From contig MFSH01000002.1 in NCBI GenBank assembly GCA_001784875.1, positions 1,220 to 65,219 of the forward strand: a DNA stretch of 64,000 bases, given 5' to 3'. Shown here piece by piece: positions 35,210-41,861 of this stretch. Below the pieces are notes generated by a model. That model worked only from the letters and a program-made list of their open reading frames with translations. It did no database searches and was not told where the DNA came from. Positions within the stretch are counted from its first letter, which is position 1; every line of letters begins with the position of its first letter. The DNA comes from Candidatus Moranbacteria bacterium RIFOXYB1_FULL_43_19 (GTDB taxonomy: Bacteria; Patescibacteriota; Minisyncoccia; Moranbacterales; UBA11712). Made by a program: the position numbers and the translations under genes.

Positions 35210-37000
35210 TTATTTCTTTCTATTCGTATATTTCGTATGCAGCAGTTCCTCCGCTTTTTCGGATCCGGGATGGCCGAGAAATTCTTTATAGATTTTCTTT
35301 AATACTGGGTTTTCGTGGGATTTCCTGATCGGCATCCCTTTATCACGCGCCATGACACCCGCGATGCGTGCTTTGCGAACGGCCGGACCGGTTGGCACCG
35401 GCTGCCCTCCGCCCCCGATGCATCCGTTCGGACAAGCCATCACTTCGACGAAATGATAGTCGCTTTTCCCCTTTTCGATTTCCTCCAAAAGATTCTTTGC
35501 ATTCCGTATTTCATGCACCACCGCCACCCGAAGTTTCATGCCGTCAACGTCAATTTCCGCGCAGCGCGCCCCCGATTCGCCCCGCACCATTTCAAATTCC
35601 ACTTTTCCAAGTTCTGCCCCAGTGATTTTTTCCACCGCCGTCCGGAGAGCCGCTTCCATCACTCCTCCGCTTTGGGCAAAAAGCATTCCTGCTCCGGTCG
35701 AAATTCCCAGTGCCGGGTCGAATTTCCTTTCTTTCAGCTTTTTCGGGTCGATCTTCTTTTTTCGGAGAAGCCTTGCCAGCTCCCGAATAGTGAGCACTAT
35801 ATCCACATCCTGGTGCCCACTTGCATTTATTTCTTCTCTCTGCGCTTCATATTTTTTTGAAGTGCAGGGCATGATCGAGACTGAAACGATCTGCTCCGGA
35901 TTTATTTTTTCCTTTTGAGTCCAGTAGGTTTTCACGAGCGGCGCGAGCATCTGTTGGGGCGATTTGCAAGTTGAAAGATTGGGAATGAATTCGGGATAAT
36001 ATTTTTCAACATATAAAACCCAAGACGGACAACAACTGGTGAACATCGGGAACGGCCCCCTGTTCTTGATGCGCCTGATGAGCTCATGGGCTTCTTCGAT
36101 GATCGTGAGATCCGCTCCAAGAACTGTGTCAAAAACTTTGTCGCACCCGATCTCCTTGAGAGCCGCGACCAGTTTCCCCTCCCAAAAAGTGCCGGGGGCC
36201 TCTCCAAATTCTTCGCCGATTGTGAAACGAACCGAGGGAGCCGTCTGGACAACGACCATTTTTTGGGGATCTTTGAGGGCTTTTTCAAATTTTTCGATAT
36301 CGTCTTTTTCGGTGATTGCCGCTGTCGGACAAACTGCGCTGCACTGTCCGCAGAAAATGCAGTCAAGCGGAATTTCAAAAGGTGTACCGACATTCGTTTT
36401 TGAACTGCGATAATTCATCCCATAGGCTTCGACTGTTTGCATATCTCGACAAATCCGGATGCAGCGCCGGCATTCGATGCAGTATTCGCTATCCCGCGCA
36501 ATGCACGGATTTTTTTCGTCTATCGCCACATGCGACCAGTTGTCTTTGAGTAAATCCAGCTCATTTTCGCTTCTTAGCTCTTTTCGTCGCGGCACAAATT
36601 TGAATTCATCGACTTTATACTCTTCCGCCAGATTCTGAAGCTCGCATCGCCCGTTTCTTTTGCAGGACGCGCATTTTCCGGCGTGATCCGCCCAAAGAAG
36701 CTCGAGATTCACTTTCCGCGCCCTTTTCACATCTGCTGTTTCTGTTTTGATTTCCATCCCCTTGCATACTTTTTGGGTGCAGGAAGATACCAAGCTTTTC
36801 GATTGGTTTGTTTCTACAAGGCACATCCGGCAAGCGCCTTCGCTCGGCAGCAAATCCGGGTGGGCACAAAGAGTGGGAATGCGAATTCCATTTCTTTTGC
36901 AAACAGAAAGAATCGGTTCGCCTTCGTCAGCCTGATATGATTTATTGTTGATTTTTATCTGCATGCCTTTTTTATAAATAATTCTAGTCTTTGGTAACAA
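35210..37000 (-). CDS. hydA: [FeFe]-hydrogenase catalytic subunit (HydA-like; 2Fe-2S + 4Fe-4S ferredoxin domains + H-cluster)
   Basis: 596 aa. The N-terminal 2Fe-2S fold has C...C..C. The H-cluster motifs are present: TSCCPSW (L1), MPCTSKKYE (L2) and EVMACPNGCIGGGGQP (L3). Confidence 0.85.
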   Translation of the reverse strand: MLPKTRIIYKKGMQIKINNKSYQADEGEPILSVCKRNGIRIPTLCAHPDLLPSEGACRMCLVETNQSKSLVSSCTQKVCKGMEIKTETADVKRARKVNLELLWADHAGKCASCKRNGRCELQNLAEEYKVDEFKFVPRRKELRSENELDLLKDNWSHVAIDEKNPCIARDSEYCIECRRCIRICRDMQTVEAYGMNYRSSKTNVGTPFEIPLDCIFCGQCSAVCPTAAITEKDDIEKFEKALKDPQKMVVVQTAPSVRFTIGEEFGEAPGTFWEGKLVAALKEIGCDKVFDTVLGADLTIIEEAHELIRRIKNRGPFPMFTSCCPSWVLYVEKYYPEFIPNLSTCKSPQQMLAPLVKTYWTQKEKINPEQIVSVSIMPCTSKKYEAQREEINASGHQDVDIVLTIRELARLLRKKKIDPKKLKERKFDPALGISTGAGMLFAQSGGVMEAALRTAVEKITGAELGKVEFEMVRGESGARCAEIDVDGMKLRVAVVHEIRNAKNLLEEIEKGKSDYHFVEVMACPNGCIGGGGQPVPTGPAVRKARIAGVMARDKGMPIRKSHENPVLKKIYKEFLGHPGSEKAEELLHTKYTNRKK

Positions 37001-37124
37001 GGTTATTGGCAGTGAGTCTGGTCATTGGTTATGAGTCATCGGATTTTTTTAATAACCAAAGACTAAAGACCTGTCCCACAGCTAATGACTTTGTTACTAA
37101 TGACCCATTCTTGATTCGTAGAGA
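36972..37124. repeat. Intergenic ~130-bp repeat family, copy 1 (between hydA and hydB)
   Basis: GTCTTTGGTAACAAGGTTATTGGCAGTGAGTCTGGTCATTGGTTATGAGTCAT...AAGACCTGTCCCACAGCTAATGAC.... It is homologous to the copies at 38352, 41700, 52025 and 62245. Confidence 0.7.
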
Positions 37125-38351
37125 TCACCCGAATATTTCTTTTCCAAACATCTTCATCGCATCGCTCCATGCAATCGCCGCGAAATTTCCCAGTGGACAG
37201 AAAGTCGTATTGGATAAAGTCCACAAAATATCTTCAATATTTTCTTTATCCCGCTTGAGAATTTCATTTTTTTTGATCCGTTTGGCAATTTCCCAAAGAC
37301 GGTAGGTTCCCTCCCGACACGGTACGCATTTTCCGCATGACTCCCGATGAAAAAAATCCGCCCAGGAGAAAAGCAAATTTTTGAGGTCAGTGCTCTTGTC
37401 AGCCACAAATATTGATCCGCACCCGAGATTATATTCGCCGGCGCCATACGCCAAAGGCTGATCAAGTTTTCCAGCCGTTACCAGTCGCCCCGACGCTCCT
37501 CCGATTTGAGCAAACAAAAAATCTTTTCCGCTCGCCATTCCCCCGCCGTATAAAGAGTTGTATATCAGTTCCTGGGCCGTAGTCCCGAGAGGAGCTTCGA
37601 AAATTCCTTGCTTTTTCACTGCTCCTTCAAGAACAAAGAGTTTTGTTCCCGGTGAACCGCTCACGCCTATTTGTGAATAGGTTTTAGCTCCCCGCTTTAT
37701 AATAAAGGGAACATTCGCCAGAGTTTCCGCGTTGTTCACGATCGTAGGTTTTCCAAAAAGTCCCGCTACCGGCGGATAAGGGGGTTTCAAGCGCGGCTCA
37801 CCCCGATTTCCCTCAACGCTGTTTATGAGAGCTGTCTCTTCGCCGCAGATATAAGCCCCGGCTCCCTGAAAAATATCCACCTCAATATCAATAGCGCTTC
37901 CCAACATAGAGCGTCCGATAAATTCTTTTCCCCGGGCCTGCTCAAGCGCGATTTCCAGGATTTCGTTTTGTTTTCGATAGTATCCGTTTATATAAATAAA
38001 GGCTTTTTTCGCCCCAATGGCTGTCGCGCCGATGAGAAGCCCTTCAATGATCTGGTGCGGATTTTTTTCAGCAATTGTCCGGTCCTTATACACTCCCGGC
38101 TCCGACTCGTCAAGATTGCAAATGAAATATTTTTCTTTGGCTGGAGTTTTTGCCGCCAAATCCCATTTATCGCCCGTTGGAAAACCGGCCCCGCCTCGGC
38201 CACGAAGACCGGATTTTTTCACTTCCTCAATTATTTTTTCCGGCGTCATTTCCCGAATGGCTTTGCGCAAAGATTCGTAACCGCCGGTTTTTATATAGCT
38301 GTCGATTCTGAGCGGATCTATTTTATTCCAGTTTTTTGTTAGTATTTGCAT
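37125..38351 (-). CDS. hydB: NADH-binding flavoprotein subunit of bifurcating hydrogenase (NuoF/HndC/HydB-like)
   Basis: 408 aa. It has the NuoF FMN/NADH region GLRGRGGAGFPTG and the 4Fe-4S motif ESCGKCVPCREG. Confidence 0.8.
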   Translation of the reverse strand: MQILTKNWNKIDPLRIDSYIKTGGYESLRKAIREMTPEKIIEEVKKSGLRGRGGAGFPTGDKWDLAAKTPAKEKYFICNLDESEPGVYKDRTIAEKNPHQIIEGLLIGATAIGAKKAFIYINGYYRKQNEILEIALEQARGKEFIGRSMLGSAIDIEVDIFQGAGAYICGEETALINSVEGNRGEPRLKPPYPPVAGLFGKPTIVNNAETLANVPFIIKRGAKTYSQIGVSGSPGTKLFVLEGAVKKQGIFEAPLGTTAQELIYNSLYGGGMASGKDFLFAQIGGASGRLVTAGKLDQPLAYGAGEYNLGCGSIFVADKSTDLKNLLFSWADFFHRESCGKCVPCREGTYRLWEIAKRIKKNEILKRDKENIEDILWTLSNTTFCPLGNFAAIAWSDAMKMFGKEIFG

Positions 38352-38479
38352 TTATAATATTTCATTGGTTACATTAGGCATAGGCTGTAAGACAAGTCAT
38401 TAGTCACTGGTTATTAGAAAGATACTATTGACTAAAGACCAACAACCAAACCCACTGCCAATAACCTTGTTACCAAAGA
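38352..38479. repeat. Intergenic repeat family, copy 2 (inverted relative to copy 1; between hydB and hydC)
   Basis: It ends ...CCCACTGCCAATAACCTTGTTACCAAAGAC, the reverse complement of the start of copy 1. Confidence 0.7.
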
Positions 38480-38920
38480 CTATAAGTAACTTTGTATGAT
38501 ATCATCCACCATCTCCGGTTTCACTCGCTCAAAAATCTGTCCTTCCACTTCAACCACCGGTCCCCGGTCGCAAAGCCCCAGGCAGCTTATGTATTCCAAT
38601 TTATATTTCGGGTGAGCGTCATTTCCAGCCTCAAGACCAAGAAGCATTTCAATTTGACGGGCTACTTTGGCTGAATCTTTCGAGAGACATGGCCCCCCGG
38701 AGCAGATTCTGATATTTTTTTTGGTTTCTTTTTTGGTCCGGATTTCATTGAAAAAACTGGCGAAGCTGTATATTCGCGCCAGAGGCAACGAGAAATAGTC
38801 GGCAATTTTTTCACATTCTTTTTCCCCGATGTATTTGTTTTCTTTTTGAGCGGCTTTGAGCGCCCGGAGCAAATTTTCCGGCTTTGGCTCAATTTGGACA
38901 AGAATCTTTTGAAGAGACAT
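38480..38920 (-). CDS. hydC: NuoE-like thioredoxin-fold 2Fe-2S subunit (HndA/HydC-like)
   Basis: 146 aa with the cysteine pattern CSGGPC...CLGLCDRGP. Confidence 0.75.
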   Translation of the reverse strand: MSLQKILVQIEPKPENLLRALKAAQKENKYIGEKECEKIADYFSLPLARIYSFASFFNEIRTKKETKKNIRICSGGPCLSKDSAKVARQIEMLLGLEAGNDAHPKYKLEYISCLGLCDRGPVVEVEGQIFERVKPEMVDDIIQSYL

Positions 38921-39090
38921 ACATGTATTTTAACATAATTGCGGAAAAGGGAGAAGTTTTGTAAAATAAACTTGAAGAATTGTGAATTTGGAATTTTGAA
39001 TTGAGAACGGGAATCTAGAACGAGAAATTCAAAATTCAATATTCCCATTTATAATTCTCAATTCACAGTTCTAAATTCTAATTTAAAAAT

Positions 39091-39636
39091 ATGATCGAAA
39101 ACAACAACACGGAGACAATTGCGACAACTTTTCCTGTCGCAACTTACCAAACCAAAGACCTCGCCTGGACGCTTATTATGATTCTTGCCGCCGTCGTTCT
39201 TCCTGCCCTTCTGGCCCATACGCCGCAAAACCAGTGGGTCACGGGCACAATCGTGAACGCCCTGCTATTTTTAGCCGTTTGGCGCGTGGGATTCGTAAAC
39301 GCAGCTTTCGTCGCCACTCTGCCGTCGTCAATCGCTCTCATGCGCGGTCTGCTCCCCGCGCCGATGGCGGTATTGATTCCGTTTATCATCTTGTCTAATA
39401 TAATTCTCGTCGCCGCTTTTTACACCTTGAAAAAATACCCGCTTGCGGGTATTGTCTCGGCATCTTTTCTAAAATTCTTTTTTCTTTTTGCGATTACTTC
39501 TTATCTCATAAAAGTCGCTTCGCCCCTTCTTGTCATGATGCACTGGCCGCAGCTTTTCACAGCTCTCGCCGGCGGATTGATTGCAATTGGAATCGTCAAA
39601 ATAACCAATTCACTTGTTCCTAAAGTCCGACTTTAG
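39091..39636 (+). CDS. Integral membrane protein (hypothetical; possibly an ECF-type S component)
   Basis: 181 aa with about 5 transmembrane helices. The last 7 codons are encoded by a REP palindrome. Confidence 0.4.
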   Translation: MIENNNTETIATTFPVATYQTKDLAWTLIMILAAVVLPALLAHTPQNQWVTGTIVNALLFLAVWRVGFVNAAFVATLPSSIALMRGLLPAPMAVLIPFIILSNIILVAAFYTLKKYPLAGIVSASFLKFFFLFAITSYLIKVASPLLVMMHWPQLFTALAGGLIAIGIVKITNSLVPKVRL

Positions 39637-39639
39637 GAA
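39617..39639. repeat. REP-like 23-bp palindrome, copy a (TTCCTAAAGTCCGACTTTAGGAA)
   Basis: Perfect 10-bp arms. It is one of five copies clustered around the RAYT gene. Confidence 0.75.
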
Positions 39640-39644
39640 TAGCT

Positions 39645-40310
39645 TTACTCAAAAACCATATCCTTGTCTTGTTTTCTCATTTGAAAGTCGGCAATATTTT
39701 CTGCCGCGTATTCTTCTAGTTCCTTGGGATTTCTAAAATCTCCTCTAAATTCTTCATCTCTTGCTAAAGTATCTCTGCTTTTTCCAATGTGATGCGAAAA
39801 ACTGCACCAGGAATAACTTTTCGCCGCACAAACTTTATGCACTTCACTATTGCAACTCACGTAAACTGAAAATCTCGAAAGTGAACCCTCATTTTTTATC
39901 TGCGAAGATTTGAATTTACCCTGAAATAAGGCGCCGTTTCGCTTATTCTTCTCGTTGAAATATTTCGTATAACTTGTGCCTAGTTTTTGCAAAAATTTTT
40001 CAATTCCTTTTTCGACTTTTTGCTTCAAAATCATATGATAGTGATTTGACATAAGGCAATAGCTGACAATATCCACAAGATATTCTCTTTTCCTAAAGTT
40101 CGACTTTAGGAAGTGATTGAGGTTGGCATTTTTGACGCATTTCTTGTAGTCGCGCCACTTTATCATCGCTCCGTCTTCCATATCATTCAGAAGATTCATC
40201 GAGATAAGAAACCGAGAAAAATCTCTGTCATCCAAAAAAACATTTCGCTTGTCCACGCCGCGATTATAGATGTGATAGTATTCATTTTCTACGAGAGGCG
40301 TTTTTCTCAT
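39645..40310 (-). CDS. IS200/IS605-family HuH tyrosine transposase, REP-associated (RAYT-like)
   Basis: 221 aa. It has the HuH motif MSNHYHMIL and downstream tyrosines (GTSYTKYF / FSVYVSCN). The N-terminal YYHIYNRG resembles RAYT N-termini. It is surrounded by REP palindromes. Confidence 0.7.
   Translation of the reverse strand: MRKTPLVENEYYHIYNRGVDKRNVFLDDRDFSRFLISMNLLNDMEDGAMIKWRDYKKCVKNANLNHFLKSNFRKREYLVDIVSYCLMSNHYHMILKQKVEKGIEKFLQKLGTSYTKYFNEKNKRNGALFQGKFKSSQIKNEGSLSRFSVYVSCNSEVHKVCAAKSYSWCSFSHHIGKSRDTLARDEEFRGDFRNPKELEEYAAENIADFQMRKQDKDMVFE
40089..40111. repeat. REP-like palindrome, copy b (inside the RAYT coding sequence)
   Basis: TTCCTAAAGTTCGACTTTAGGAA, in frame, encodes FLKSNFRK of the RAYT. 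Confidence 0.7.
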
Positions 40311-40325
40311 CGTATTTCATCTCTC

Positions 40326-40346
40326 TCCTAAAGTTCGACTTTAGGA
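40326..40346. repeat. REP-like palindrome, copy c (slightly degenerate)
   Basis: TCCTAAAGTTCGACTTTAGGA, immediately upstream of the RAYT start. Confidence 0.65.
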
Positions 40347-40402
40347 TAACAGATTTTTTGAGATTATACAAAAAACGAGCTGAAAATGCCCGTTTTTCTC
40401 TA

Positions 40403-40425
40403 TTCCTAAAGTCGAACTTTAGGAA
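40403..40425. repeat. REP-like palindrome, copy d
   Basis: TTCCTAAAGTCGAACTTTAGGAA. Confidence 0.75.
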
Positions 40426-40445
40426 GGGTTAACTTTAGCAAAACT

Positions 40446-41195
40446 CTATTTCGAGCACAAATACGCTTTGCCAAGAGCGGCTTTGTATGGAAATACACTT
40501 CCGCAACTGCTTCCGGGAGAATAAAAAAAAGTGCCAGTTCCGCCAATGCCATTAATGTTGCATCCAGAATATCCACACCAATCAGACGTAGAACCATAAC
40601 AAACCCCCCACTCACCCAAGTCTTTTGCCACATTAAATCCGCTGTCACAGAGCCCCTGTGTCCCTATAACAACAGAAGCGGGACATACAGGAGTTGCCAT
40701 TTTAGCATCGTACAAACAAGTGGCTGTATATGAAAAACTTCCTCCCGCCGCCACCGCCGCTTCGATGGCGCGCTGGGTGGGATCCCCGGTGGTTTGGGTT
40801 CCGACAGCGCGGACGGCTTTGACGGTTGAGATATCTGCGTCAGCGATGATAACTTTCCCATTTTCATCGAGAAGATAAAGATCACAGCCAAATCCCGTGG
40901 GACAAGGTATTTTTCCTCCCGCAGTAAAGTCATCGAAAACACTGATAATTGTGGTTCCAGTCGCGTTAGCTATCTTGTTGAGCGCCCATTCTACTCCGGA
41001 GTCGGCTTTGAAGAAGGAGCTGACGGAGCTTTTGGTTTTGGAGCTCATTTGCTGTTCCATGACCGTCACATAGGAAAGGCTCACTACCATGGAAAGAACT
41101 ACGAAAAGGAGAATGGTGGTGAGAAGGAGGGCGGAACCTTTGCCTACTGGCGGGCAAGCTTTTTTTGATTGTTGACGCTTTGTTTTGGTTTTCAT
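40446..41195 (-). CDS. Cys-rich secreted/membrane-anchored hypothetical protein
   Basis: 249 aa. It has an N-terminal transmembrane/signal anchor and many Cys and Gly residues. It is flanked on both sides by REP copies d and e. Confidence 0.4.
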   Translation of the reverse strand: MKTKTKRQQSKKACPPVGKGSALLLTTILLFVVLSMVVSLSYVTVMEQQMSSKTKSSVSSFFKADSGVEWALNKIANATGTTIISVFDDFTAGGKIPCPTGFGCDLYLLDENGKVIIADADISTVKAVRAVGTQTTGDPTQRAIEAAVAAGGSFSYTATCLYDAKMATPVCPASVVIGTQGLCDSGFNVAKDLGEWGVCYGSTSDWCGYSGCNINGIGGTGTFFYSPGSSCGSVFPYKAALGKAYLCSK

Positions 41196-41290
41196 TGGTT
41201 TTTTTTGTGAAGAATTACTTTTATACCTTCAGAATACCCCCCCCCCGACGCTTGGTGTCAAATCGAAAAATGCGGATAAACGTGGTATCA

Positions 41291-41313
41291 TTCCTAAAGT
41301 TCGACTTTAGGAA
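41291..41313. repeat. REP-like palindrome, copy e
   Basis: TTCCTAAAGTTCGACTTTAGGAA. Confidence 0.75.
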
Positions 41314-41369
41314 TAAAAAAAACAGCCTCGACGTGACGTCGGAGCTGTTTTTTATATAGAATATCAATA

Positions 41370-41675
41370 TTATATCTTCGTAATTTCCACTTCGGTGAAC
41401 ATCTGGCGATGCCCGAATTTAACCTTATACCTTTTTTTTGCCTTATATTTGATTCCCCAAACTTTTTTGGCTTTTGCCTGCTTCAAAATTTTCCCTTCAA
41501 CAACCGCGCCTTTCAAGAAAGGATTTCCGACTTTGACGGACTTTTCGTCGCCCAAAAACAAAACTTCGGAAAATTTCGCCGCGCTTCCCTCTTTCCCCTC
41601 GATTTTTTCAATTTTTATCTTATCGCCCTTTTTGACAAGATACTGCTTTCCGCCAGTCTTTATTACAGCTAACAT
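41370..41675 (-). CDS. rplU: 50S ribosomal protein L21
   Basis: 101 aa. MLAVIKTGGKQYLVKKGDKIKIEK is the classic L21 start. Confidence 0.85.
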   Translation of the reverse strand: MLAVIKTGGKQYLVKKGDKIKIEKIEGKEGSAAKFSEVLFLGDEKSVKVGNPFLKGAVVEGKILKQAKAKKVWGIKYKAKKRYKVKFGHRQMFTEVEITKI

Positions 41676-41699
41676 AATATTTCTTTCTTAAAATCACTT

Positions 41700-41861
41700 A
41701 TACAGACTATAGAAATTCCGGTGCAATGTCAAGGTTATTTGCTGTGAGTTACAAAGCTGTGGGCAATGGGACTGGTTGTGAGTCATAAGTTGTGGGACTC
41801 TTGTCCCAACGACCCACTGCTAATGACCTGACCCACAACTCACTGCCTTGTTACCAATAAC
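41700..41861. repeat. Intergenic repeat family, copy 3 (divergent)
   Basis: ...AAAGCTGTGGGCAATGGGACTGGTTGTGAGTCATAAGTTGTGGG...CACTGCCTTGTTACCAATAACC. Confidence 0.6.

What the first reader, a model, noticed from the sequence alone, without database searches (positions are those of the whole stretch)
39617..41313. REP-RAYT module: HuH tyrosine transposase surrounded by five copies of a 23-bp perfect palindrome
The palindrome TTCCTAAAGT-(YSR)-ACTTTAGGAA occurs five times within 1.7 kb (39617, 40089, 40326, 40403, 41291). The copies bracket an IS200/IS605-like HuH-Y1 transposase gene (HYHMIL motif) and the neighbouring Cys-rich surface-protein gene. This is the architecture of REP/BIME sequences with their REP-associated tyrosine transposase, which is mainly characterised in Proteobacteria.

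One palindrome is embedded in frame inside the RAYT coding sequence (encoding FLKSNFRK) at a position where canonical RAYTs are shorter. Another supplies the last 7 codons of the upstream membrane-protein ORF. Either REP insertions have remodelled these coding sequences, or the RAYT is a decaying pseudogene.
Basis: seen in the sequence. Interest (0 to 1): 0.6.

Follow-up and report, generated by a model that had tools for sequence, protein, structure and literature searches.

The report
Hairpin repeats around a RAYT-like gene
An intact single-strand-DNA enzyme gene in a tiny uncultured (Moranbacteria) bacterium sits among copies of the DNA hairpin it probably recognises, one copy inside its own coding sequence; this is a known kind of system in a group where I found no description of it.

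Summary
There are four perfect 23-bp palindromes and one copy with a 9-bp stem at 39617, 40090, 40325, 40403 and 41291. None occurs elsewhere in the 64 kb, and none is expected by chance.

The ORF at 39645-40310(-) is an intact HUH/Y1 protein of 221 aa, not a pseudogene. It passes the Pfam Y1_Tnp cut-off, and its AlphaFold model best matches the E. coli RAYT-REP complex. It belongs to a large, length-conserved family, mostly from Patescibacteria.

The same palindrome is dispersed in this genome (at least 9 copies at 4 or more loci) and in related metagenomes, mostly just after stop codons and often as inverted doublets. Each paralogue in the genome has its own hairpin family. This is a REPtron-like module, although it lacks the GTAG foot and has a low copy number.

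The in-frame copy is neither a recent insertion nor decay. Across 69 homologous loci the locus-specific hairpin recurs inside the CDS in 33, against 1.35% for non-cognate hairpins. These copies sit at two fixed sites and co-vary with the flanking copies down to loop and synonymous bases.

In-frame REPs inside tnpAREP genes are already published, but at another position and in other phyla. In the Moranbacteria clade the module usually follows a PilX-like pilin gene with a variable C-terminus. The verdict is a new variant of a known kind.

The parts
39617..39639 (.). REP-like hairpin copy 1 (10-bp stem, loop CCG). It lies 5 nt after the RAYT-like stop codon and supplies the last six codons and the stop of the convergent membrane-protein ORF.
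   Evidence: the orthologous locus L214 has the same arrangement
39645..40310 (-). Intact RAYT-like HUH/Y1 gene, 221 aa. HUH motif NHYH (H90, H92); Tyr motif Y150-x3-N154.
   Evidence: Pfam Y1_Tnp 32.5 bits, cut-off 23; invariant residues; AF2 pLDDT 91.5; best PDB fold match 4er8_A
40090..40112 (-). In-frame intragenic hairpin copy (codons 67-74, FLKSNFRK). On the gene strand it is identical 21/21 to the proximal upstream copy.
   Evidence: joint probability of the codon choice 1.5e-4
40325..40347 (.). Proximal upstream hairpin copy (9-bp stem at 40326-40346). It ends 15 nt before the ATG, probably in the 5' UTR.
40364..40399 (-). Spacer elements between the two upstream hairpins. A stem-loop with a T-run (about 40372-40398) looks like the terminator of the PilX-like gene. 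A TATAAT box (40369..40364) lies ahead of the RAYT-like gene. The layout is conserved in L091, L209-L212 and L214.
   Evidence: read directly from the sequence; function is inferred. The consensus scan did not list either element.
40403..40425 (.). Distal upstream hairpin copy (loop CGA, inverted relative to 40325), 20 nt after the PilX-like stop codon. With the copy at 40325 it can form a REPIN-like long hairpin.
   Evidence: 111-nt fold, -27.7 kcal/mol, z -7.7
40446..41195 (-). PilX_N-type minor-pilin-like gene, 249 aa, with a conserved N-terminal ~140 aa and a variable Cys-rich C-terminus. It is the usual upstream partner of this RAYT clade.
   Evidence: Pfam PilX_N 30.6 bits, cut-off 25.5
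41291..41313 (.). Hairpin copy 5 (11-bp stem at 41290-41314, loop TCG), upstream of the PilX-like gene and next to the rplU terminator.
39091..39636 (+). Membrane-protein ORF (181 aa) whose 3' end is formed by hairpin copy 1.

Best explanation
This is a REPtron-like module of a RAYT-like (class-2 TnpA-Y1) family found mostly in Patescibacteria. It comprises an intact HUH/tyrosine single-strand-DNA endonuclease gene and its cognate 23-bp hairpin.

The hairpin is present in four settings: (a) directly after the gene; (b) in its probable 5' UTR, plus an inverted partner 55 nt further up; (c) in frame inside the gene; and (d) at low copy number elsewhere in the genome, mostly just downstream of stop codons.

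By analogy with E. coli TnpAREP and IS608 TnpA, the inferred mechanism is as follows. The protein binds the hairpin when the DNA is single-stranded, uses the loop for strand and sequence discrimination, and cuts and rejoins DNA next to it. That activity would spread the hairpins or keep them uniform.

The intragenic copies sit in two surface-exposed segments (between helix A and strand 2, and after the Tyr helix), where a 7-8 residue peptide is tolerated. They are kept identical to the external copies by a constraint at the DNA level. That constraint could be recognition by the enzyme or hairpin-limited replacement.

The gene itself behaves as a resident, divergent-paralogue gene and not as an active insertion sequence.
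For: Sequence and profile matches:
- Five copies are present where none is expected by chance.
- The ORF passes Pfam Y1_Tnp, and its best NCBIfam hit is REP_Tyr_transpos.
- The AF2 model (pLDDT 91.5) has 4er8_A (RAYT bound to a REP hairpin) as top PDB match at E=1e-6, followed by the IS608 and ISDra2 TnpA structures.
- H90, H92, Y150 and N154 are invariant in 80 homologues.

Hairpin-gene linkage across 87 homologous loci:
- 64 loci have a perfect hairpin within 130 nt upstream and 45 have one just downstream.
- In 33 of the 40 loci with both, the two hairpins belong to the same family.
- Hairpin sequences differ between genomes.
- The cognate hairpin lies inside the CDS in 33 of 69 loci, against 63 of 4668 for non-cognate hairpins.
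- Internal copies cluster at nt 154-217 and 433-493, which map to the same alignment columns.

Fine-scale co-variation:
- Close relatives show it in stem, loop and synonymous positions.
- The six palindrome-forming codons have a joint probability of 1.5e-4 under the window's codon usage.
- 26 of 37 internal 3-nt loops form one codon. In 10 of these the inverted loop would be a stop codon.

Dispersal and paralogues:
- The three paralogues in this genome (53-58% identical) each have their own hairpin family.
- Palindrome copies next to A2359_00165 and A2359_04550, and next to a Fic gene whose accessions overlap those of the A2359 proteins, place at least 9 copies at 4 or more loci in this genome.
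- 109 unique instances were found in low-GC metagenome contigs, many as inverted doublets.

Published context:
- Loop bases are decisive for recognition of perfect-palindrome REPs in vitro (PMC8266576).
- In-frame REPs inside tnpAREP genes have a published precedent (PMC6006769).
Against: - No biochemical data exist for this family.
- There is no conserved GT[AG]G or other tetranucleotide at the hairpin foot.
- The NCBIfam RAYT equivalog scores 36 bits against a cut-off of 80.
- A profile of the family does not reach any PDB sequence.
- The copy number seen so far is tens at most, far below classical REPs, and the window has no copy outside this 1.7 kb.
- Half of the homologous loci lack a detectable internal copy. 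The two paralogues inspected, P0037 and P0069, also lack one at this site. The internal copy is therefore not essential.
- A complete genome was not scanned.
Confidence: 0.78

Rival explanations
1. It is an autonomous IS200-like insertion sequence of about 730 bp (39617-40347): left-end hairpin, tnpA, right-end hairpin. On this view it still transposes as a unit, and the extra hairpins are solo ends or miniature derivatives.
For: Hairpins abut both ends of the gene (15 nt before the ATG, 5 nt after the stop), and the unit is IS200-sized. The whole unit is present or absent at one site: PilX|RAYT|LigA in L209, L210, L212 and L213, against PilX|LigA with no hairpin in L215. Different RAYT lineages occupy that site. 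RAYT fragments bounded by hairpins exist. Half-site tandem duplications next to hairpins are enriched, 15/379 against 9/1895.
Against: The places shown for this exact protein share one gene neighbourhood, and 13 further places with mostly the same neighbouring genes were collapsed. Paralogues in the genome are only 53-58% identical and each has a different hairpin. The Tyr motif is the class-2 type (Y---N[PS]), not the Y---Q of IS200. The protein has a conserved ~70-aa extension beyond the IS200 core. An internal copy of the end hairpin would make an IS excise defectively.
Confidence: 0.12
2. The module is functionally coupled to the neighbouring PilX-like gene. On this view RAYT and its hairpins promote exchange or relocation of the variable C-terminal (adhesin-like) part of a minor pilin, as a targeted diversification device.
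For: A PilX-like gene lies immediately upstream of the RAYT at several distinct genomic contexts: the window, L207/L208, L211, L209/L210/L212, L213 and L214/L216. Of four PilX homologues chosen without regard to RAYT, three have a Y1_Tnp gene next door. Fourteen exact contig-length coincidences occur between the two top-120 hit lists. The N-terminal ~140 aa are 52-74% identical, while the C-termini are unrelated and include Collar, H_lectin and Fib_succ domains. PilX identity does not track RAYT identity: in L091 the RAYT is 90% identical and the PilX N-terminus 52%. Nucleotide similarity to the orthologous locus stops at 40438, beside the hairpin at 40403. There is a published analogy with prochlorosin genes.
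Against: No PilX neighbour was seen in the 80 more distant homologous loci. No silent donor cassettes were found. The one breakpoint resolved between near-identical strains (L207 against L208) lies in the conserved PilX 5' UTR, not at a hairpin, which fits ordinary homologous recombination between paralogues. The authors of the prochlorosin analogy later weakened their causal claim.
Confidence: 0.15
3. The hairpins are mainly RNA or transcription elements (3'-UTR stabilisers, attenuators, a translational operator in the 5' UTR), and their link to the HUH gene is incidental.
For: Most copies lie 5-25 nt after stop codons. The proximal copy lies between a -10-like box and the start codon. REPs in E. 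coli have 3'-UTR effects (bioRxiv 10.64898/2026.03.23.713779, abstract only).
Against: No T-tract follows the hairpins, and none was called as a terminator. There is no Rfam match. This view does not explain locus-specific co-variation with the gene, the private hairpin of each paralogue, or the in-frame copies. It may be a secondary role rather than a true alternative.
Confidence: 0.04
4. One reading: the RAYT gene is a decaying pseudogene disrupted by a REP insertion.
For: In other populations (L120, L139, L196, L204) a RAYT fragment covering residues 67-106, with an in-frame stop, begins exactly at the internal palindrome. Such decay therefore does occur elsewhere.
Against: In the window the ORF is full length. 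All invariant residues are present, the model is confident, and the palindrome-encoded peptide is a conserved motif (DFLKLNFRxRE) in orthologues.
Confidence: 0.01

Closest known systems
E. coli REPtron: TnpAREP/RAYT (YafM, PDB 4ER8) with REP/BIME sequences (Bertels group 2, Quentin subclass 2.2)
   Same: HUH/Y1 fold (top Foldseek hit). The gene is flanked by its cognate hairpins, including an inverted pair. The hairpins are dispersed intergenically. There are few gene copies, and each paralogue has its own REP family.
   Different: 10% sequence identity. Here the hairpin is a perfect 10-bp palindrome with a 3-nt loop and no bulge, and there is no GTAG foot. The protein is 221 aa, with two extra helices before strand 2 and a long C-terminal helix. 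The copy number is tens rather than hundreds. The host is a Patescibacteria MAG.
Quentin et al. 2018 TnpA-Y1 subclass 2.4 (Bertels group 4; Cyanobacteria and Bacteroidetes), with REPs inserted in frame inside tnpAREP (PMC6006769)
   Same: Cognate REP copies lie inside the transposase gene without breaking the frame, in peripheral parts of the protein.
   Different: [quoted passage not shown] Here there are two other fixed sites (before the HuH strand, after the Tyr helix), the hairpins are short and footless, and the motifs are NHYH/FQ/YVSCNS rather than NH[IFV]H/WQ/YIxNNP.
Quentin subclass 2.1 / TIRYT (Bertels group 1)
   Same: Motif pattern NH[YF]H, FQ and Y[IV]HLNP in the wider family, length above 200 aa, a WSS-type tail motif and a C-terminal extension.
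   Different: Subclass 2.1 was reported to have no REP-like hairpins and to carry HTH-type C-terminal domains. Here hairpins are the rule, and Pfam reported no family other than Y1_Tnp. Membership was not tested by phylogeny.
IS200 / IS608 TnpA (IS200/IS605 family, subclass 1.1)
   Same: Pfam Y1_Tnp, the same fold, hairpins next to both gene ends, and a unit of about 0.7 kb.
   Different: The Tyr motif is the class-2 type, not Y---Q. There are no near-identical copies, the hairpins are perfect rather than imperfect, and there is no tnpB.
TnpAREP-prochlorosin association in marine picocyanobacteria (bioRxiv 10.1101/2020.03.09.984088)
   Same: A RAYT-type gene lies next to a gene family with a conserved N-terminal part and a hypervariable C-terminal part. 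The adjacent genes are not phylogenetically linked.
   Different: The cargo (a pilin-like surface protein rather than a lanthipeptide precursor) and the phylum both differ. Causality is unproven in both cases.

Membership tests
RAYT / TnpAREP REPtron (class 2 TnpA-Y1) | HUH metal-binding motif | tested here: met
   NHYH at residues 89-92; H90 and H92 are invariant in 30 and 80 homologues.
RAYT / TnpAREP REPtron (class 2 TnpA-Y1) | Catalytic Tyr in a Y---NP motif | tested here: met
   Y150 and N154 are invariant. This clade has S155 in place of P. More distant family members have the canonical YIHLNP.
RAYT / TnpAREP REPtron (class 2 TnpA-Y1) | Fold of a Y1 HUH transposase, closest to TnpAREP | tested here: met
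   AF2 pLDDT 91.5. Foldseek PDB top hit is 4er8_A at E=1.1e-6, followed by the IS608 and ISDra2 TnpA structures.
RAYT / TnpAREP REPtron (class 2 TnpA-Y1) | Gene flanked by its cognate palindromes, specific to each gene lineage | tested here: met
   Window copies. Of 87 loci, 64 have an upstream hairpin and 45 a downstream one, and 33 of 40 with both share one family. Each paralogue has its own family.
RAYT / TnpAREP REPtron (class 2 TnpA-Y1) | The same palindrome dispersed in many intergenic copies in the host genome | tested here: inconclusive
   It is dispersed: at least 9 copies at 4 or more loci of the A2359 MAG, all extra copies intergenic.
RAYT / TnpAREP REPtron (class 2 TnpA-Y1) | Conserved 5' GT[AG]G tetranucleotide at the hairpin foot | tested here: not met
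   The position table for 109 unique instances shows no conserved flank beyond extension of the stem.
RAYT / TnpAREP REPtron (class 2 TnpA-Y1) | Score above the curated NCBIfam NF047646 (REP_Tyr_transpos) cut-off | tested here: not met
   36.1 bits against a cut-off of 80.
RAYT / TnpAREP REPtron (class 2 TnpA-Y1) | Strand-specific binding, cleavage and strand transfer on the single-stranded hairpin | not testable with these tools
   This needs the purified protein and oligonucleotides.
IS200/IS605 TnpA (subclass 1.1 insertion sequence) | Pfam Y1_Tnp above the gathering score | tested here: met
   32.5 bits against 23, residues 67-151.
IS200/IS605 TnpA (subclass 1.1 insertion sequence) | Y---Q Tyr motif and a core-only protein of about 150 aa | tested here: not met
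   The motif is YVSCNS and the protein is 221 aa.
IS200/IS605 TnpA (subclass 1.1 insertion sequence) | Several near-identical copies per genome | tested here: not met
   The places shown for the exact protein share one gene neighbourhood. Paralogues are 53-58% identical.
Quentin subclass 2.4 (tnpAREP with internal REPs) | Cognate REP in frame inside the gene | tested here: met
   Codons 67-74 in the window; 33 of 69 loci overall.
Quentin subclass 2.4 (tnpAREP with internal REPs) | [quoted passage not shown] | tested here: not met
   The sites lie before HuH and after the Tyr helix. The motifs are NHYH, FQ and YVSCNS. The hairpin is short and footless.
PilX-type minor pilin (neighbouring gene) | PilX_N domain above the Pfam cut-off; position in a type IV pilus operon | tested here: met
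   30.6 bits against 25.5. Orthologues are the last gene of a PilC-pilin-PilD-minor-pilin operon in L209, L210, L212, L213 and L215.

The most novel reading that the evidence does not exclude
The hairpins inside the RAYT gene are not merely tolerated passengers but working sites. The enzyme acts on copies in its own 5' UTR and coding sequence, for self-limitation or to keep gene and repeat inseparable. The whole REPtron is tied to the 3' side of PilX-like minor-pilin genes, where it drives exchange or relocation of their variable adhesin-like C-termini. That would give host-dependent CPR bacteria a dedicated single-strand-DNA mechanism for varying pilus tips.
Probability: 0.12. Interest if true: 0.85.

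Novelty: new variant of a known kind. Interest (0 to 1): 0.58.

Why it matters
REP/RAYT systems have been studied almost only in Proteobacteria, with surveys in Cyanobacteria and Bacteroidetes. This locus shows a large family of such modules in the reduced genomes of Patescibacteria, with 1,212 clusters at 50% identity scoring E<=1e-30.

The module here takes a simple form: a short perfect hairpin with no GTAG foot. It gives an unusually clean natural read-out of enzyme-repeat co-evolution, because the repeat is written into the enzyme's own reading frame at two fixed sites and changes with the external copies.

That makes two questions directly testable: which hairpin bases the enzyme reads, and whether RAYTs homogenise their repeats. 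The recurrent placement after a hypervariable pilin-like gene is a lead to how these episymbionts vary a surface structure they depend on.

Tried and rejected
- **Rfam (region 39000-41800, E<=1):** only sub-threshold chance hits.
- **Consensus terminator and promoter scan:** the palindromes were not called as terminators, and no T-tract follows them.
- **Profile of the family against PDB sequences:** no meaningful hit, so fold comparison was needed.
- **Search for a GTAG-like guide next to the hairpins:** none found.
- **Other hairpin families of this genome (CYAACAT type) in the window:** none.
- **PilX neighbour in the 80 distant homologous loci:** absent apart from isolated pilin-like neighbours such as L029. 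The PilX link is therefore clade-limited.
- **Phase variation of the G10 tract upstream of the PilX-like gene:** assemblies differ only as G10T against G11 at constant length, which gives no support.
- **Breakpoint between the near-identical strains L207 and L208:** it lies in the conserved PilX 5' UTR, not at a hairpin. This weakens a hairpin-driven rearrangement reading.
- **Literature searches for RAYT or REP in CPR/Patescibacteria:** nothing relevant in the held library.
- **Pseudogene reading:** rejected.
Full report
**1. The observation**

The window is from Candidatus Moranbacteria bacterium RIFOXYB1_FULL_43_19 (Patescibacteria/CPR). The exact RAYT-like protein is A2359_02300, carried on NCBI, JGI and ENA contigs. 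Window G+C is 42%.

The palindrome TTCCTAAAGT-NNN-ACTTTAGGAA occurs perfectly at 39617, 40090, 40403 and 41291. A fifth copy at 40325 has its outermost pair broken, leaving a 9-bp stem. No copy is expected in shuffled sequence. A relaxed core search and an exhaustive hairpin scan find no further copy and no comparable hairpin family in the 64 kb.

Loops are CCG, TCG, TCG, CGA and TCG on the + strand, so the copy at 40403 is inverted relative to its neighbour at 40325. All copies fold stably as single-stranded DNA. The 40325/40403 pair can also form one long REPIN-like hairpin.

Codons 67-74 of ORF 39645-40310(-) are the palindrome (FLKSNFRK). The last six codons and the stop of ORF 39091-39636(+) come from the copy at 39617.

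**2. The gene**

The 221-aa ORF passes Pfam Y1_Tnp (32.5 bits, cut-off 23). Its best NCBIfam hit is the RAYT equivalog, but well below that model's cut-off (36 bits against 80).

About 2000 homologues were retrieved, and nearly all of those listed are 212-243 aa. Sources name them Moranbacteria, Parcubacteria group or Patescibacteria group, and JGI labels several 'REP element-mobilizing transposase RayT'. An exhaustive profile search finds 1,212 clusters at 50% identity with E<=1e-30 and 13,410 with E<=1e-10.

H90 and H92 (NHYH), Y150 and N154 (YVSCNS; YIHLNP in more distant members) are invariant.

An AlphaFold model built from 80 homologues has pLDDT 91.5. Its best match among solved structures is E. 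coli RAYT bound to a REP hairpin (4er8_A, E=1e-6), followed by the IS608 and ISDra2 transposases.

Relative to those proteins, residues ~41-78 form two extra helices and there is a long C-terminal helix. The palindrome encodes the end of helix 64-71 and the loop before strand 79-86. The gene is therefore intact, and the long region is a family trait rather than a product of a 23-bp insertion.

**3. The palindrome is a dispersed, lineage-specific repeat**

After removing duplicates and high-GC contigs, 109 unique instances remain. Loops are mostly TCA, TCG or TTA. Most instances are not near a RAYT and lie where no long ORF covers them. Several are head-to-head doublets separated by 2 nt.

ORFs next to four copies carry locus tags or accessions of the same MAG as the window: A2359_00165, A2359_04550 and a Fic gene. 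This genome therefore has at least nine copies at four or more loci. The extra copies lie 12-80 nt after stop codons. A related MAG (WC858) shows the same dispersal.

The two other RAYT paralogues of this genome, P0037 and P0069 (58% and 53% identical), are flanked by their own hairpins: CTCCCAACAT-CGG and TACCAACAT-TCA. Further doublets of related hairpins are scattered in those loci. No conserved GTAG-like foot exists.

**4. Co-variation, including inside the gene**

I examined 80 loci of distant homologues (30-51% identity) from GTDB species genomes, plus close relatives.
- 64 of 87 loci have a perfect hairpin (stem 8 bp or more) within 130 nt upstream of the gene.
- 45 have one at the 3' end.
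- In 33 of the 40 loci with both, the two hairpins belong to the same family.
- Hairpin sequences differ from genome to genome.

The locus's own hairpin recurs inside the CDS in 33 of 69 loci (2 or fewer mismatches). Hairpins from other loci do so in 63 of 4668 tests, or 1.35%.

The internal copies fall at nt 154-217 (26 cases) and nt 433-493 (14 cases). The first site aligns with window residues 67-74, before the HuH strand. The second lies just after the Tyr helix. Many proteins carry the same hairpin-encoded peptide (L[GR]xxxxK) at both sites.

In 26 of 37 internal copies with a 3-nt loop, the loop is one codon. In 10 of these the inverted loop would be TAA or TGA, which is consistent with selection for an open frame.

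Among close relatives, the proximal upstream and internal copies are identical 21/21 in the window, L091, L209 and L212. Changes are shared:
- A synonymous CTA to CTT change in L212 matches that genome's REP variant.
- A stem change in L008 alters the peptide to FLKRSFRK.
- The window's CGA loop gives Ser70, where TGA-loop genomes have Leu.

Given the peptide, the six palindrome-forming codons have a joint probability of 1.5e-4 under the window's codon usage. Identity does not extend into the flanks. This argues for a constraint on the hairpin itself, not for general gene conversion.

**5. Local layout**

On the gene strand the order is:
1. hairpin at 41291;
2. a promoter-like region containing a G10 tract;
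3. the PilX-like gene;
4. hairpin at 40403;
5. a terminator-like stem with a T-run;
6. a TATAAT box;
7. hairpin at 40325;
8. 15 nt, then the ATG of the RAYT-like gene with its internal hairpin;
9. the stop codon, 5 nt, then hairpin at 39617.

The terminator/-10/hairpin arrangement between the PilX-like and RAYT-like genes is conserved in L091, L209-L212 and L214. The proximal hairpin is therefore probably transcribed in the 5' UTR. This step is inferred.

**6. Is it mobile?**

The places shown for the exact protein share one gene neighbourhood across several assemblies and samples. Paralogues are old. On short time scales the gene behaves as a resident gene, like RAYTs and unlike IS200.

Over longer times the unit comes and goes. 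PilX|RAYT|LigA in L209, L210, L212 and L213 contrasts with PilX|LigA, with neither RAYT nor hairpin, in L215. RAYT lineages with different hairpins occupy that site.

In other populations a RAYT fragment (residues 67-106, with a stop codon) begins exactly at the internal palindrome and ends at another hairpin. Exact tandem duplications of one hairpin arm plus flank are about eight times more frequent at hairpins than at random positions, 15/379 against 9/1895. These are possible footprints of activity, but they are not proof.

**7. The PilX link**

The neighbouring 249-aa gene has a PilX_N domain. In relatives its orthologue is the last gene of a type IV pilus operon (PilC, pilins, PilD, minor pilins), and the RAYT-like gene follows it. 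PilX-then-RAYT pairs also occur at other genomic contexts, including a second pair in this genome.

Of four PilX homologues picked without regard to RAYT, three have a Y1_Tnp gene immediately downstream. Fourteen exact contig-length coincidences link the two top-120 hit lists.

The proteins share a conserved N-terminal ~140 aa and have unrelated C-termini, which are Cys-rich, lectin-like or collar-like. PilX similarity does not track RAYT similarity.

The link is confined to this Moranbacteria clade. The one breakpoint resolved between near-identical strains lies in the conserved PilX 5' UTR. Ordinary recombination between paralogues therefore explains at least part of the pattern.

**8. Comparison with what is known**

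Quentin, Siguier, Chandler and Fichant (2018) defined REPtrons and 12 TnpA-Y1 subclasses. [quoted passage not shown] The words 'Candidatus', 'Parcubacteria' and 'candidate phyla' do not occur in that paper's main text.

Corneloup et al. (2021) showed that loop bases are decisive for perfect-palindrome REPs. That fits the loop co-variation seen here.

The motifs of the present family (NHYH, FQ, Y[IV]HLNP or YVSCNS, and a WSS-type tail) resemble subclass 2.1, which was reported to lack REPs. I did not test that membership by phylogeny.

Searches of the held literature found no description of REP/RAYT systems in CPR bacteria.

**9. Verdict**

The REP-RAYT interpretation is supported in function and architecture, but three canonical features are missing or weak: the GTAG foot, the curated model score and a high copy number. 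The pseudogene and recent-insertion readings are rejected.

I class this as a new variant of a known kind. It is a RAYT-like family found mostly in Patescibacteria, with short footless hairpins, two conserved in-frame hairpin sites that co-evolve with the external copies, and a clade-specific association with a variable pilin-like gene. Binding and cleavage by the enzyme remain inferred.

Noticed in passing
window 41238-41247: A run of 10 C (G10 on the gene strand) lies in the 19-nt spacer between a perfect TTGACA and a TATTCT box upstream of the PilX-like gene. Another PilX locus (L120) has C8A8 in the same place. The assemblies differ only as G10T against G11 at equal length, so phase variation is not shown.
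   Followed up: partly
window 40446-41195; L207 9055-9762; L209-L216: The PilX-like proteins next to RAYT genes share ~140 conserved N-terminal residues and have unrelated C-terminal domains (Cys-rich DLGxWGxC...PPGGxC...AYLC type, Collar, H_lectin, Fib_succ). The Cys-rich module also occurs on a protein with a different N-terminus (L114 195-743), again with the palindrome ~22 nt after its stop codon.
   Followed up: partly
L120 1745-1878 (also L139, L196, L204): A RAYT fragment (residues 67-106, with an in-frame stop) starts exactly at the internal palindrome and ends at a GCTAAGGT hairpin. It lies in an intergenic stretch crowded with four different hairpin families.
   Followed up: partly
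L091 9637-9676; L105 1845-1880; L210 5957-5990; L209 6670-6709; window 40426-40445 (decayed copy): Tandem duplications of one hairpin arm plus 4-8 nt of flank (period 10-20) occur beside hairpins. Exact ones are found at 15/379 hairpins against 9/1895 random positions.
   Followed up: partly
L207 9039 / L208 8129: Two contigs are 99.97% identical from 16 nt before the PilX ATG onward but completely different upstream. In L208 the upstream region holds an extra divergent RAYT with its own TTTTAGACGT hairpins, one of them internal. The PilX 5' UTR (TCTAAAACAAAAA) is conserved among paralogues.
   Followed up: partly
L214 and L216 versus window 36991-41700: The orthologous locus keeps the right flank (membrane protein, NuoE/NuoF-like, Fe-hydrogenase-like genes), but its left flank is FBA aldolase, histidine kinase, response regulator and PilX rather than rplU and PilX. 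In the window's genome, FBA aldolase lies next to the other PilX-RAYT pair (L207). This suggests a rearrangement between the two modules.
   Followed up: no
L105 741 and 1846; L111 13004; L107 1769: The other copies of the palindrome in this genome lie beside accessory-type genes: a 141-aa protein whose sequence looked Fic/Doc-like to me (not profile-tested), a protein named Fic by its source, and 178-aa and 376-aa proteins that looked PIN-like and methyltransferase-like by eye (untested). Two direct copies bracket the 141-aa gene.
   Followed up: no
loci L039, L044, L049, L050, L057, L059, L062, L072, L079, L084, L010, L063: Several homologue-bearing MAG contigs are titled Gammaproteobacteria, Bdellovibrionales or Nanoarchaeia. 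The family otherwise looks Patescibacteria-specific, so these labels may be binning or naming errors. This was not checked.
   Followed up: no
window 40311-40324 (gene strand, upstream of the ATG): A second ATG 10 nt upstream of the RAYT start, 4 nt after an AGGAG that forms part of the hairpin's 3' arm, would open a 12-codon out-of-frame ORF overlapping the start codon. Its significance is unknown.
   Followed up: no
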